In this document: positions 4,200 to 56,101 of the stretch, one piece after another
Position numbering within the stretch: position 1 is the first letter of the stretch
Layout of the letters: every line of letters begins with the position of its first letter
Assembly: GCA_951406725.2 (NCBI GenBank)
Contig: OX597820.1
Span: forward strand, 58,280,001 to 58,344,000
Direction of reading: 5' to 3'
Source: Octopus vulgaris
Taxonomy: Eukaryota
DNA: 64,000 nt
Notes under the pieces: model-generated
Database searches by the model: none
What the model was told of the DNA's origin: nothing
What the model saw: the letters and a program-made list of their open reading frames with translations, nothing else
Translations under genes and position numbers: made by a program

Positions 4200-4278
4200 C
4201 CCGACTCGAGAATCACTCAGACTAAACGTTTAGTTTCGCCTATTTCCGTAGGCTTCATCAGTGAGGATAGATGTCGGG
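4200..4278 (-). ncRNA. type I hammerhead ribozyme, canonical core
   Basis: Minus strand: cuca CUGAUGA A GCCUA-cggaaa-UAGGC GAAA CUAAACGUUUAG UC|ugag. Helix I cuca/ugag plus distal atc/gat and cccgac/gtcggg; 14-nt palindromic helix III; GUC site with cleavage predicted between 4220 and 4219. Confidence 0.9.
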
Positions 4279-5067
4279 CAGTTCCGTCTGTCGGTATATA
4301 AGTATTCATCATAGAAATCTATGTGTCATTTAGCGGAATGCTAATGTGTATACAAAAGATTATATATACACCATACATACATTAATTCAAGTAAATGAAT
4401 TAGATAACAGCAATTAATAATTACATAATTATTACATGGCTAACAACGTTTTCGTATCAGTCATGGAAACAGTTGTAGAAAAGATGGTATTTTTGAAATA
4501 TCAATGACGTTGCTTGTTTTCTATGCTTCCTCATATTCCGCTCTGTCCGCTCGTTTTAACCTACTTTAAGAATTTTGCAATGTCGTACCCACTTTACTGC
4601 CACATTGAAGTAATAGTATATTGGAATTGATATATTGGAAAGGATATATTAACGAATTAAGGTCTAGAATCCTGTGTACGTATGTAGGTGTTAGTGTGCA
4701 CATGTAAACGGTGAGACACAGAGAGGGAGGTGCATTTGTGTGTGTGTGTGTGTGTGTTGCTTTTCGCAATTTGAATGCATTATGGACAAATGGTAAAGAA
4801 GTTCGCTTTGCAATCTTGAAGTCTTGGGTTCGATTTCAGTGCGTGGCATCCTGGGTGAATGTCATTTGACTTGAGTCATCCCCAGCTTTGAGAATGACTG
4901 TGGGTTAACAAAAACCGTGTTGGGAGCCAGTGATCATGCTGGTACAGGCTAAGAATTACGCTAAGGGTACTATGTCTGCTAGTTCGATAAGTAGGTACGT
5001 TCATTTATTCGAACAGTGTACTTATTGTCGAAACTGGCTGAGACCGTTTTTTTTTACTTAGCCAATA

Positions 5068-5400
5068 TGGAGTAGGCATGGCTGTGCAGTTAAAAAGCTC
5101 GTTTGCTAGCACATAGCTTTAGATTCAGTCCTACTGCACAGCACATTGGGCAAGTGTTTTCTACTGTAGTCCTGAGGCAACCAATGTCTTGTAAGCGAAT
5201 TTGCCAGACGAAAACTATGAGAAAATTTGCCATATATATATATGTGTGTGTCTGGTGTTGTCCCCCACTCACCTCACAACAGGTTTTCGCTTAAGTCTTC
5301 GTAACATAGCAGTTCATCAAAATATATTGATGGAATAAGTAACAGACTTTAGGGAATGAGAATTGGGATCGATTTTGCTTGACTAAATCCTTCAAGGTGT
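5068..5400 (+). mobile_element. SINE family B copy (diverged)
   Basis: ggagtaggcatggctgtgcagttaaaaagc head, cattgggcaagtgttttctac, internal (TA)n. Confidence 0.7.
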
Positions 5401-5904
5401 GGCTTTGTCTTTCATCTTTTATGGATCAATAAGCACCAGTCAAATATTGAGGTTGATGTAACGAGTAAGAGAGGGAGGGTTCTAAGTGTTCATTCGACTC
5501 GCTAGAAATAGCAACTAAGTCTCTCTCAGATCACACAGTTAATCAAGACAGAACACGTTGGATAATGTAGTCCTAGATATACTATAAGACCCTCTCTTCA
5601 AAATTACATGCCTTATGCCAATATCTGAAAGAATTATTTATAAGGCGGTGAAATTATAACGCGTCAGACAAATTCGTACAGCATCTCTTTTGAATCTTTA
5701 CGTTCTGCGTTCAAATTCTACTGAAATCAACGTTGTCTTTCACCTTTTCGGGGATTACATCGACACTAGTCAAATACCGAAGCCAATGTAATCGAATTGT
5801 CCCCCTCCAACATCAAAATTGTTGGTCCTGTGCCAAAATTAATTTTTTTACTATTATAACAATTCGTGTAATATTATTTATTATTATTACTATTATTATT
5901 ATTA

Positions 5905-6545
5905 AGCTGACAGAATCGTTACCACGCTGGACGAAATACCTAGCGGTATTTCGCCCGTCGCTAAGTTCTAAGTTCAAATACCACCGAGGTCAACTTTGCC
6001 TTTCATCCTTCTGTGGTCGATAAATTAAGTACCAGTAAAACACTGGGTCGATGTAACAGACTAGTCCCCTCCCCACAAATTTCAAACCTTGTGCCTATAG
6101 TAGAAAGGTTTATTACTATTTGTATTAAGGCGGCGAGCTGGCAGAAACGTTAGCACGCCGGGCGAAATGCGTAGCCGTATTTCGTCTGTCGCTACGTTCT
6201 GAGTTCAAATTCCGCCGAGGTCGACTTTGCCTTTCATCCTTTCGGGGTCGCTTAAATAAGTACCAGTTACGCACTGGGGTCGATATAATCGACTTAATTC
6301 GTTTGTCTGTCCTTGTTTATCTCCTTTGTGTTTAGCCCCTTGTGGGTAGTAAAGAAATAGGTATTTCGCCCGTCTCTACGTTCTGAGTTCAAATTCTGCC
6401 GAGGTCAACATTGCTTTTCGTCCTTTCAGGGTCGATAAATTAAGTACCAGTTGAACACTGGAGTCGTCGTAATCGATACATTACCACCTCCCACCCCCAC
6501 CACCAAAAAATAGCTGCCCTTGTGGCTAAGTTTGAAACCATTATT
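5905..6545 (+). mobile_element. cluster of SINE family A copies (monomer about 5905-6110, dimeric copy 6129-6540)
   Basis: ggcggcgagctggcagaaacgttagcacgccgggcgaaatgc head; body repeated twice, joined by the tgtctgtccttgtt...cccttgtgggtagtaaagaaatag linker. Confidence 0.85.
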
Positions 6546-7049
6546 ACTATTCGTATAATATTATTATTACTATTACTAATTATTACTATTATTTATTATT
6601 ATTACTATTCGCGTATGATTTAGGGGAGTCGTAGAGTAATAAATGGTAATGTGAATCCGATTTCAGGTTCATTTTATTTTTTGTGTATGTGATTTCTGAC
6701 AATAGTCAGAAGCCACCAGAAATCTTCGAAACCACCAAGTTGGCTTGCCTACAATACAATACATAAATGAAGTAAGCGACTTTGCAGAAATGCAGAAATT
6801 TATTGTTTTAGCACAGATTCCGGTGGATTTTATTGCGCATTTTGCAACCTTGCTCGGTTTCCGATTCTCTGACTCTATACCACATCCATCATTTTCTTCC
6901 CCCCATACAGTTAAAAACAAATTAAGAACTCTCTGACATTTTCATTGTTTTGAGTGTTTTAACTACAACTGGGGGAATGGGGAAAGGAGGGATAAACCAT
7001 TAATTTCAAAGAAATAAGGAAAACAGGATTATGCTTGAGGTTGTTGCTT

Positions 7050-53916: not shown

Positions 53917-54108
53917 TATATATATATATATATATATATATATATATATATATATATATATATAAATATATAGTCAGACAGACAAATAGACAAACAGATG
54001 TAGAGAGAGGGGAAAGTGTGAATACATAGGTGCACAACATGGTGGAGAAAATAATACTGAAATAGAGTAAAATATAGTGTTGCATTGAAGCTAAAATTTT
54101 TCACAAAA

Positions 54109-54144
54109 TGATACTCAGAGTTTCGCACACCCGATCATCAGACA
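54109..54144 (-). ncRNA. PLE-type minimal HHR with weak helices I and II
   Basis: Minus: ugu CUGAUGA UCGGGUGUGC GAAA CUCUGAG UA|uca; downstream of LLNGNEI (like LLN.r.EI) and upstream of (TA)n. Confidence 0.6.
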
Positions 54145-55394
54145 GAAGTGAACTTGTAGAACAATGCAGTTATTTGTTTATATCTGCTTATATAATGTTT
54201 AGAAATGTTCGCAAATGTTTATAAACCACTGTATTGGTCCAAACCGTCACTTCCGTTTGATGAACCGCTTCGTCCAGCACGCGCACGCACGAATTCTTAG
54301 ATGCAGCTCGTATAGGATCTTGCCTTGCATTTCTGTGCGCACATATAGTGTTATGTAGTGCTCACAATTTGCCTCAGACCTGTGACTAATTGTGCATAAA
54401 GAAAAATTTTATTTTTTTTTAAATTTCTGGTTCCGTTGATTTCATTTCCGTTCAACAGTCCCGTTGTATTCGTGATACGGCTATCAGCACATGAACAGAA
54501 AACATTGAAGAGAATGGGAGTTTTTTTTTTCCACCTGAGATATCAACGATAGTATAAGAATTTCAAGTTACACAGAGTTAAGTCCCTTTCGCAACAAACT
54601 TCCCTAATTTATTTAATATATCATGTTATAACATTATTCTGTCACACTTTATGTAAAAAAAAGAAATACGCTGGGGGGAACCGTATTCAAAAGTAAAGAG
54701 AAATCAACAAACAGGGAGGAGAGTGAGAGACAGCAAGAAGATGGAAAAGAGAGAGAGAGAGAAATAGTTAAGCCGACAGAAATAGAAGAGAAAGTGAAGG
54801 GAGGAAGGTAGGGGGAGAGAGAAAGAGAGAGAGATCGGGGTGTTGAGGTTTGGTGGTGGGTAACACCTGGAGAAGGAAAGGAGGTGATCAAAGGTACAAA
54901 AGGTTAGTCAGTGTAAAGTGATATCTGTGAGAATTCCGCGATAACAGATGGCGGTAGCTGCCATTCTTACCCTGGCGTGTGGTAGCATGGTAATATGACA
55001 CAGCAGAGTGTATGTATGTACGTGTTGAATGTGTGTGTGTGTGCGCGTCTGCATGCGAGTGTGTACGCTTTGGTGAAGAAAGATTTGGTTGGAAGTAGAC
55101 TTAAATATGTAAGTTAGTATACATAGCGTTTGTGTGTTTCTCTGTGTGTGGATGAGTAGACAGACGGACAGACAGACAGGCAAGCAGGCAGACAGACAGG
55201 CAGGGAGGCAGGCAGGCAGATAGACAGATAGATAGATAGATAGATAGATAGATAGATAGATAGATAGATAGATAGATAGATAGATAGATAGATAGATAGA
55301 TAGATAGATAGATAGAAAACGTGTGCATACACTCATCCATACATATTCACATGCACACAACTATACATAAACACACACACAAACACACACACAC

Positions 55395-55798
55395 ACATTG
55401 TTAGATTAGGAAAGACGAGCGTTTTGAGACGCAACTAGAAGACTGTATAAGATGCTGGTTGGATGTAGGGATTGGATGTAGGACTGTAATAGGACCAAAT
55501 TGAGACGGTGACTGGTATCAATTGGTGTTGAGCATCGTTAAGCAAACACCATCTTGAAGCGCAGTTAAGAGGCCATCTACTGGATATGGTTGAAAAGGAG
55601 TGGTGAAACCTGGCTGGAGAGGTTATGATCCCGGATCACTAGTCAATCGAAACAGTAGGTGGAGGCCTTACATCAGTGAGGGGAGTCAATGCGCTGTAAG
55701 GCCGTCGAGAGGAAGGCCTCGAAACGGTGCGCATTCTTTCCTGATGGCCCCTGCATCACACTGGCATCTGGTATGCAGAGAAAGCGACTGACTGCACT
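55395..55798 (+). mobile_element. 3' end of an RLE-type non-LTR element (NeSL/Hero-like)
   Basis: LVGCR (like EVGCRG) and EAIYWIWLKR (like aS.WlWlkR), structured 3' UTR, ends in (TA)n. Confidence 0.6.
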
Positions 55799-56050
55799 TT
55801 ATATATATATATATAGTGTAGGTATCAGTTTAATACCTCTAAGGGATAATTAAATCCAAAGTCGCTCCTGGTTATTACCTTGGTAGGTACAGTCTTTTGT
55901 AAGGTTGTACGGAGTAGCAGGTGGTTCTGTTGGTAAACCGTAGTTTAGGTTATATAGGAGAAGAAAATGGATGTAATAACAATGGGAGACTTGTGGTTTT
56001 CGCTGGTATGCCTTTAATTTAATCAAATAGCAAAGAAGGAGGTGAAGGTA

Positions 56051-56101
56051 GCATTTACGATCGTTTCGATTTACTGGTTTAAGTAAATCTCTTCAGAATG
56101 C
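56051..56101 (-). ncRNA. type I hammerhead ribozyme, canonical core
   Basis: Minus: gcauu CUGAAGA GAUUUACU-uaaacc-AGUAAAUC GAAA CGAUCG UA|aaugc; 5-bp helix I, 8-bp helix II, palindromic ACGAUCGU helix III, GUA site. Confidence 0.9.

What the first reader, a model, noticed from the sequence alone, without database searches (positions are those of the whole stretch)
4200..56101. Dense, sequence-diverse set of type I hammerhead ribozymes tied to (TA)n-associated elements
Seen: at least eight HHR folds at 4200-4278, 21195-21246, 24945-24982, 31980-32013, 34324-34358, 41157-41205, 54109-54144 and 56051-56101, plus decayed traces near 29148 and 36641. Their helices differ in sequence but keep pairing, and helix III is palindromic or nearly so (ACUAAACGUUUAGU, AUUGGCAUGCCAAU, ACGUACGU, ACGAUCGU, ACGU, ACUCUGAGU). 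Most lie within a few hundred bp of a (TA)n tract. Established: Penelope-like elements and non-LTR retrozymes carry type I HHRs with palindromic helix III that can act as dimers, and some PLE clades favour (AT)n sites. Inference: this genome hosts several families of ribozyme-bearing non-autonomous RNAs mobilised by PLE enzymes, about one per 8 kb here, possibly producing small circular RNAs.
Basis: partly seen in the sequence, partly recalled or inferred. Interest (0 to 1): 0.9.

Follow-up and report, generated by a model that had tools for sequence, protein, structure and literature searches.

The report
Penelope-borne hammerhead ribozymes in TA repeats
This octopus-like genome is littered with tens of thousands of hammerhead-ribozyme motifs carried by Penelope-type retrotransposons and by protein-free repeats inserted in the same pattern; the kind is known, but the commonest family counted here has a changed catalytic core that would be expected to slow cutting.

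Summary
The folds are real: 8 window hits against 0.07 per shuffle. Of the eight named sites, three have intact cores, two carry family-wide core variants and three are damaged. Three more were missed (15635, 16699, 17771); 36641 is a half motif; 29148 is unconfirmed. They are not one thing. Site 56051 is the 3' end of an ORF-bearing Penelope-like element (PLE). Site 21195 lies in a young, ORF-less 560-nt unit found as head-to-tail arrays with inverted arms in (TA)n; in 25 of 27 complete two-armed insertions one arm ends 94 nt beyond the other. That is non-LTR retrozyme anatomy with a PLE footprint; the missed trio is a second, older unit of about 470 nt. Sites 24945 and 34324 belong to families with 15,730 (A6U core) and 11,043 (mostly U4C) exact motif copies. 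Sampled density elsewhere is about 1 per 31 kb, not 1 per 8 kb. PLE hammerheads and retrozymes are published; I found no report for octopus or of natural A6U, but could not read the key variant paper. The scan noted the same insertion pattern in other genomes with tRNA-bearing units. Cleavage and circles are untested.

The parts
4017..4371 (-). Family A element (old, 72-85% to relatives); intact hammerhead 4216-4265 with extra A after A9 and a 14-nt palindromic helix III
   Evidence: 5 of 14 homologues keep an intact core; no PLE ORF remnant in 14 loci
15491..18063 (.).
20907..21587 (-). Family B: 1.2 copies of an ORF-less 560-nt unit (121-nt terminal redundancy, one mismatch) between (TA)n tracts
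   Evidence: 305 exact motif matches in the genome
21195..21246 (-). Family B hammerhead, intact core, helix III ACGUACGU; predicted cut between 21199 and 21198
24862..25082 (+). Family Cp fragment; hammerhead 24945-24982 with family-wide A6U core
31913..32118 (+). Family C, older subfamily, between (TA)n tracts; damaged hammerhead 31980-32013
34221..34425 (-). Family C, younger subfamily, between (TA)n tracts; hammerhead 34324-34358 with U4C core
36640..36655 (-). 3' half (GAA, palindromic helix III, cut site) of a long-helix-II hammerhead family; 5' core half lost
41087..41287 (-). Family D element (old); hammerhead 41157-41205 with private G12A
   Evidence: (D block); 3 of 16 homologues intact
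54017..54194 (-). Family E element (old); hammerhead 54109-54144 with broken helices
   Evidence: 7 of 12 homologues keep the core letters
55800..56331 (-). Family F: 3' terminal repeat of an ORF-bearing, endonuclease-positive PLE, ending at (TA)n; intact hammerhead 56051-56101

Best explanation
The window holds eleven hammerhead motifs from eight repeat families whose copies mostly end at (TA)n tracts, and they were likely all inserted by Penelope-like (PLE) reverse transcriptase-endonucleases, some as truncated 3' ends of the PLEs themselves and some as protein-free passenger RNAs. Shown: family F continues upstream into a broken C-terminal PLE endonuclease frame; families B (560 nt) and J (about 470 nt) have no ORF, run head to tail across their own unit junction, carry one hammerhead per unit and form inverted arms, and B arms end at one of two fixed points 94 nt apart, one per arm. 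Inferred: a tandem locus is transcribed; hammerheads pair through the palindromic helix III and cut slowly to unit length; a host ligase would close the unit to a circle; a PLE enzyme nicks (TA)n, and each target 3' end primes reverse transcription at its own AU-rich site on the RNA, giving a long arm that can roll several times round and a second inverted arm, both truncated at scattered points. After insertion, copies decay neutrally. The U4C and A6U cores of families C and Cp are inferred to be slow but tolerated ribozymes, because N7 and the cut-site base vary among subfamilies while the rest of the core and the helices are kept.
For: Non-chance motif. F: a GIY-YIG C-terminal peptide upstream; 23 of 30 loci hit by it carry F sequence downstream on the same strand, 3 of them being the loci that gave the lead. 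Long PLE frames exist in G000 (847 aa L248, 785 aa L245; YRDD, YVG/YIG, CxxC), the Atlas places a relative with HTH_animal/RVT_1/GIY-YIG clusters, and the L248 element has a 3' hammerhead and two 3' ends (read by eye). B: 72 of 76 arms end at unit position about 466 or about 560, 68 of 76 abut (TA)n, 37 of 76 exceed one unit; 25 of 27 complete two-armed insertions have one end of each kind, none has two of the same; 24 of 74 arms cross the predicted cut site twice or more; units within an insertion differ 0.81% (tandem) and 1.58% (inverted) v. 2.63% between loci; unit folds at z=-5.0. J: junction-crossing copies and two 3' ends about 83 nt apart. C: fixed 3' end in 44 of 45 copies, ragged 5' ends. 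Cp: 15,730 exact motifs with U6 v. 602 with another base, all four bases at N7; 0 of 22 copies not chosen by the pattern have A6 (16 U, 5 C, 1 gap); flanks only about 76-85% alike. Literature gives the same partial-tandem, inverted-copy and tail anatomy for PLEs (PMC8557442) and circles for animal retrozymes (PMC7229834).
Against: No cleavage, circle or strand-specific RNA was shown. No PLE sharing B's or J's 3' end was found (no match beyond B copies in 56 PLE-bearing or nearby loci). B's hammerhead is no more conserved than the rest of the unit (1.1% v. 1.1% non-majority letters in 11 loci not chosen by the motif). B's helix II base is A.A or U.U in most copies and U-A in a minority. Monomer and dimer minimum-energy folds give the hammerhead junction for A and F only, not for B, C or Cp. 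A6C gave under 0.1 per min and U4C much lower activity in vitro (PMC3088659); 8 of 9 Xenopus retrozyme dimers did not cleave (10.64898/2026.07.22.740005). B loci were chosen by likeness to the window copy, so lengths and ages are biased to that subfamily.
Confidence: 0.75

Rival explanations
1. PLE enzymes insert the units, but from uncut linear multi-unit transcripts of existing arrays; the ribozymes of B and J are weak passengers and no circle is made.
For: Crossing the cut site several times needs only an uncut RNA; B's motif shows no extra conservation and a mismatched helix II base; published PLE hammerheads cut poorly (PMC4209133).
Against: Arrays are more uniform within than between insertions, which one small template explains simply; 5 of 74 arm 5' ends fall at unit 267-272, on the predicted cut (expected 0.8), though two share one junction and another window is as dense.
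Confidence: 0.3
2. All motifs are 3' terminal-repeat remnants of autonomous PLEs, with arrays made later by DNA-level tandem amplification; there is no separate non-autonomous RNA.
For: True for F; family C extends over 1 kb upstream in CA-rich sequence like a long 3' UTR; Li et al. 2026 propose this route.
Against: B and J run from unit end straight into unit start, no ORF joins them, and each of 47 B insertions has its own truncation points and arm pair. Open for A, C, Cp, D, E: no linked ORF within 1.5 kb.
Confidence: 0.15
3. In families C and Cp the fold is kept as a binding or dimerisation signal for the PLE protein, not as a catalyst.
For: The two families with the highest exact counts carry core changes that lower activity in other hammerheads (PMC3088659).
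Against: The variation follows the catalytic rules (N7 free, cut-site base mostly A, U or C, helix I swapped G-C to C-G between C and Cp); U4C also sits on an ORF-bearing PLE (L246, read by eye).
Confidence: 0.2
4. The motifs are chance matches in AT-rich repetitive DNA.
For: Loose descriptors do give about 1 hit per 64 kb in shuffles; 29148 may be such a case.
Against: 8 v. 0.07 in the window, 14 v. 1.07 in 400 kb elsewhere; family-wide cores; reversed-pattern controls 0.
Confidence: 0.01

Closest known systems
Minimal type I hammerheads in PLE terminal repeats (Cervera and de la Pena 2014, PMC4209133)
   Same: Many sequence families per genome, a base between 9 and 10.1, palindromic helix III, mostly single truncated copies, pairs 100-700 bp apart on opposite strands; thousands per genome.
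   Different: Helix III here is 4-14 nt rather than minimal; helix II up to about 70 nt; family-wide A6U and U4C cores (that paper lists U3-A8); estimated count about 9e4.
Animal non-LTR retrozymes (Cervera and de la Pena 2020, PMC7229834; Li et al. 2026, 10.64898/2026.07.22.740005)
   Same: ORF-less tandem unit, one type I hammerhead per unit, low GC, strongly self-paired, coexisting with PLEs; a U.U at the base of helix II is described for axolotl.
   Different: B is 560 nt (170-400 nt in the 2020 paper, 51-972 in the 2026 one); short dispersed arrays with inverted arms, a 94-nt one-sided tail and (TA)n targets are shown here insertion by insertion; RNA circles not shown here.
C-terminal endonuclease PLEs with (TA)n preference (Neptune, Nematis, Hydra; Craig et al. 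2021, PMC8557442)
   Same: RT then GIY-YIG, CxxC and CxH, partial tandems, inverted truncated copy, tail at one end, microsatellite target.
   Different: Tail is 83-150 nt here against 30-40 bp; clade not determined. Naiads are excluded for F (C-terminal endonuclease, hammerhead present).

Membership tests
Type I hammerhead ribozyme | Core CUGANGA, GAA, A15.1-U16.1, H17 with helices I-III, ends in helix I | tested here: met
   A, B, F and three J motifs
Type I hammerhead ribozyme | Invariant A6 and U4 | tested here: not met
   Cp has U6 in 15,730 of 16,332 exact motifs; C has C4 in 75 of the first 100 of 11,043 (hand count)
Type I hammerhead ribozyme | Self-cleavage after H17 | not testable with these tools
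   needs in vitro assay
Type I hammerhead ribozyme | Rfam hammerhead model match | tested here: not met
   0 hits at gathering score; none among the 150 of 247 rows shown at E<=5
Non-LTR retrozyme (families B, J) | Short non-coding unit in head-to-tail repeats with one type I hammerhead per unit | tested here: met
   no ORF inside the unit
Non-LTR retrozyme (families B, J) | Abundant circular unit-length RNA | not testable with these tools
   only assembled contigs of runs guessed to be RNA were available
Non-LTR retrozyme (families C, Cp, A, D, E) | Tandem organisation | tested here: not met
   C and Cp occur as single 3'-anchored copies, some with inverted arms; not examined to full length
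Endonuclease-positive PLE (family F) | Hammerhead-bearing terminal repeat downstream of an RT-GIY-YIG frame | tested here: met
   frames linked to F are broken
Endonuclease-positive PLE (family F) | Clade placement (Neptune, Nematis, Hydra, Penelope) | not tested
   no reference set or tree; this Pfam copy gives no family for the frames
PLE-mobilised element (family B) | Partial tandem, inverted truncated arm, tail at one end, (TA)n target | tested here: met
PLE-mobilised element (family B) | 3' end shared with an autonomous partner | tested here: inconclusive
   no match in 56 loci searched; the genome's PLEs were only sampled

The most novel reading that the evidence does not exclude
The most abundant hammerhead family counted in this genome is a naturally selected A6U core variant that still cuts when dimerised through its ACGU palindrome, and the young 560-nt family is a currently rolling circular RNA whose two fixed priming sites, one per arm, record how a Penelope enzyme uses both ends of a (TA)n break.
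Probability: 0.3. Interest if true: 0.75.

Novelty: new variant of a known kind. Interest (0 to 1): 0.5.

Why it matters
How PLEs integrate and what their hammerheads do are open questions. Family B is young (97-100% identity), small, ORF-less and present in a few hundred units, with a near-invariant arm rule, so it is a clean substrate for testing circle-templated, two-ended PLE insertion and whether retrozymes are moved by PLE enzymes rather than amplified as DNA. A core change at a supposedly invariant base in over 15,000 copies tests whether catalysis is needed at all. It also shows that Rfam misses roughly 1e5 hammerhead motifs in a cephalopod-like genome (a squid annotation lists 235, PMC6962438).

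Tried and rejected
Apparent 37-of-37 identity of the B hammerhead was my error (query row printed); one search shows no extra conservation. First strict descriptor found 1 site because it lacked the extra base after A9. Rfam E-value scan was swamped by microsatellite matches; no tRNA in the window. Pfam family search by PF26215 failed, not in this copy. Protein searches were swamped by the Asn-rich linker and gave 4 hits on the RT region. No PLE ORF remnant in the window by tblastn; the RT frame at 29887-31914 is a separate LINE. B next to a PLE ORF in L245, and C next to ORFs in L196 and L246, are separated by or set in TA-rich sequence and are single cases; not taken as linkage. No RNA holder listed for B; contigs of three runs guessed to be RNA and one unlabelled run cover 25 of 30 bins, the whole unit, but cannot show strand, level or circles and no silent control was laid. 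Clustering of B 5' ends at the cut site is suggestive only. The (TA)7+ tier crashed and was not repeated. Lunse et al. 2017, the main paper on PLE hammerhead variants, was not held, so A6U may be described there. bioRxiv supplements were not seen. The window is not richer in (TA)n than the sampled stretches, so that does not explain its higher density.
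Full report
Setting. The window is G000:C7:58280001-58344000 of a 2.8-Gb assembly. Protein relatives are named from Octopus and Argonauta, so I call it octopus-like; that is inference.

Observation. I wrote a type I hammerhead descriptor. Allowing a base after A9, two window sites are perfect and none appears in 40 local dinucleotide shuffles; with at most one core change and a palindromic helix III there are 5 v. 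0.05. An extended descriptor (U4C, A6U/C, helix II to 70 nt, one mismatch at its base) gives 8 v. 0.07 in 100 shuffles; it was tuned on these motifs. Of the eight named sites three are intact (4216, 21195, 56051), two have family-wide variant cores (24945, 34324) and three are damaged (31980, 41157, 54109). Three intact motifs at 15635, 16699 and 17771 were missed. 36641 is a 3' half; 29148 is not confirmed, 0 of 9 homologues parse. A (TA)4+ tract lies within 300 nt downstream for 6 of 8 against 22% background. Rfam finds none.

Density. Forty 10-kb stretches picked at round coordinates hold 14 hits v. 1.07 shuffled: about 1 per 31 kb, roughly 9e4 per genome (my arithmetic; Poisson range about 5e4-1.6e5; chromosome ends under-sampled). 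The window is about 3.6-fold richer, three of its hits being one insertion. Every named site has relatives elsewhere, 39 or more scored matches each.

Family F (55800-56331) is a truncated PLE. Three of 14 relatives extend upstream into a broken frame ending in a CDLC...CLH peptide. Searching with that peptide gave 150 scored matches; 23 of 30 fetched loci carry F sequence downstream on the same strand, three of them the starting loci. Longer related frames exist (608, 785, 847 aa) with YRDD and a C-terminal YIG/YVG motif; the Atlas groups one with HTH_animal, RVT_1 and GIY-YIG clusters at 0.93-0.96. The 847-aa element has a 98.8% inverted copy, a 3' hammerhead and two 3' ends about 150 nt apart (read by eye). 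F also has two 3' ends at (TA)n.

Family B (20907-21587) is a retrozyme-type unit. The window copy is 560 nt plus a 121-nt redundancy between (TA)n tracts. Relatives are 97-100% identical; 305 exact motifs are in the genome, ten in a row at 560-nt spacing on C3 where the list is cut. In 47 insertions no ORF lies in the unit and unit end joins unit start. Of 76 arms, 37 end near position 466, 35 near 560, 4 elsewhere; 68 abut (TA)n; 37 exceed one unit, the longest 5.9 units. After dropping two doubtful arms and matches under 60 nt, 31 insertions have two opposed arms, 27 complete; 25 have one end of each kind, 2 have one broken end, none has two alike. Units differ 0.81% within a tandem, 1.58% between arms, 2.63% between loci. 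Twenty-four of 74 arms cross the predicted cut twice or more, so the template was a circle or an uncut multimer. Five 5' ends fall on the cut site (0.8 expected), two sharing a junction, and another window is as dense. The motif is not more conserved than the rest. These loci were chosen by likeness to the window copy.

Family J (15491-18063) repeats this anatomy at greater age: two tandem units of about 470 nt and an inverted arm, 78-87% to relatives, junction-crossing copies in about half of 21 loci, 3' ends about 83 nt apart.

Families C and Cp are about 200-nt 3'-anchored copies. C ends at one point before (TA)n or a related microsatellite in 44 of 45 copies, with ragged 5' ends, some reaching over 1 kb of CA-rich sequence without a PLE frame. 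Its motif has 11,043 exact copies, 75 of the first 100 with U4C (hand count). Cp has 15,730 exact copies with U at position 6 and 602 with another base, 19 of the first 100 of those being A (hand count); N7 takes all four bases, G the rarest at 13 of 100. Among 22 copies found without the pattern, 16 have U6, 5 C6, none A6. Flanks are about 76-85% alike across 27 correctly oriented loci and no PLE frame lies within 1.5 kb. Helix I is swapped between C and Cp. This pattern suggests selection on the fold in several master copies; whether it still cuts is untested.

Mechanism. Shown: family structure, ends, arms, ORF linkage for F, absence of ORF for B and J. Established elsewhere: PLE terminal repeats carry such motifs, dimers cut slowly, retrozymes make circles. 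Inferred: dimer cleavage, circularisation, nicking of (TA)n by a PLE endonuclease and priming from both target ends at two AU-rich sites. Dimer folding gives the intermolecular helix III with a hammerhead junction for A and F but not B, C or Cp.

Literature seen. PMC4209133: parts 1-2 of 4 (results, discussion). 10.64898/2026.07.22.740005: parts 1-3 of 5 (main text), no supplements. PMC7229834: passages and part 3 of 6. PMC8557442, PMC13282606, PMC6765202, PMC6962438: passages. PMC3088659: passages and one part (A6C under 0.1 per min; U4C tolerated in a viroid). Lunse et al. 2017: not held; known from a citing review only. Searches for hammerhead ribozyme with octopus, retrozyme with cephalopod or squid and hammerhead with A6U (one listing, on twister ribozymes, not read) showed no description of these families; the library lacks most subscription papers. 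The octopus repeat annotation counts 336 recently active Penelope-like insertions and does not mention ribozymes.

Verdict. Real, better characterised than first read, and of a known kind: PLE terminal-repeat hammerheads plus non-LTR retrozymes. What is new, as far as I could search, is the host group, the strict two-ended insertion rule of a young ORF-less unit, and a very abundant A6U core. Interest 0.5.

Noticed in passing
window 29887-31914 (-): LINE-type reverse transcriptase frame in three pieces separated by stops (RVT_1), 5'-truncated at a (TA)n tract; not a PLE.
   Followed up: partly
window 53088-53874 (-): Tc1/mariner transposase remnant (HTH_Tnp_Tc3_2).
   Followed up: partly
window 15880-16366, 38143-38507, 39369-39772, 44045-44864, 47034-47575: An abundant SINE-like repeat occurring as 184-bp partial tandems; one array interrupts the family J insertion.
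   Followed up: no
window 16815-17638: 126-bp minisatellite, 6.5 copies at 98%, grown from the family J unit across its junction.
   Followed up: partly
window 56358-56493: A 136-bp near-perfect inverted repeat just upstream of family F, not shared with the F relatives examined.
   Followed up: no
L248:5183-7723 (-) and its inverted copy: Young PLE with an 847-aa RT-endonuclease frame, a long-helix-II 3' hammerhead and two 3' ends; a candidate source of enzyme.
   Followed up: partly
L246 (about 4290-4500 and 7400-7920): Another ORF-bearing PLE in tandem and inverted pieces whose 3' hammerhead has a U4C core and an ACUCAGAGU helix III (read by eye).
   Followed up: partly
L245:3484-4297: A family B insertion sits about 150 bp upstream of the start of a near-complete PLE frame, in opposite orientation; single case.
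   Followed up: partly
L113-L152 (sampled 400 kb): Most sampled hammerheads have helix II of 30-70 nt and belong to further families not in the window; one (L134) lies 200 nt downstream of a PLE endonuclease remnant.
   Followed up: no
window 29060-29190: Old repeat (24 matches) with CUGAUGA closely followed by GAAA; no hammerhead parse, identity unknown.
   Followed up: partly
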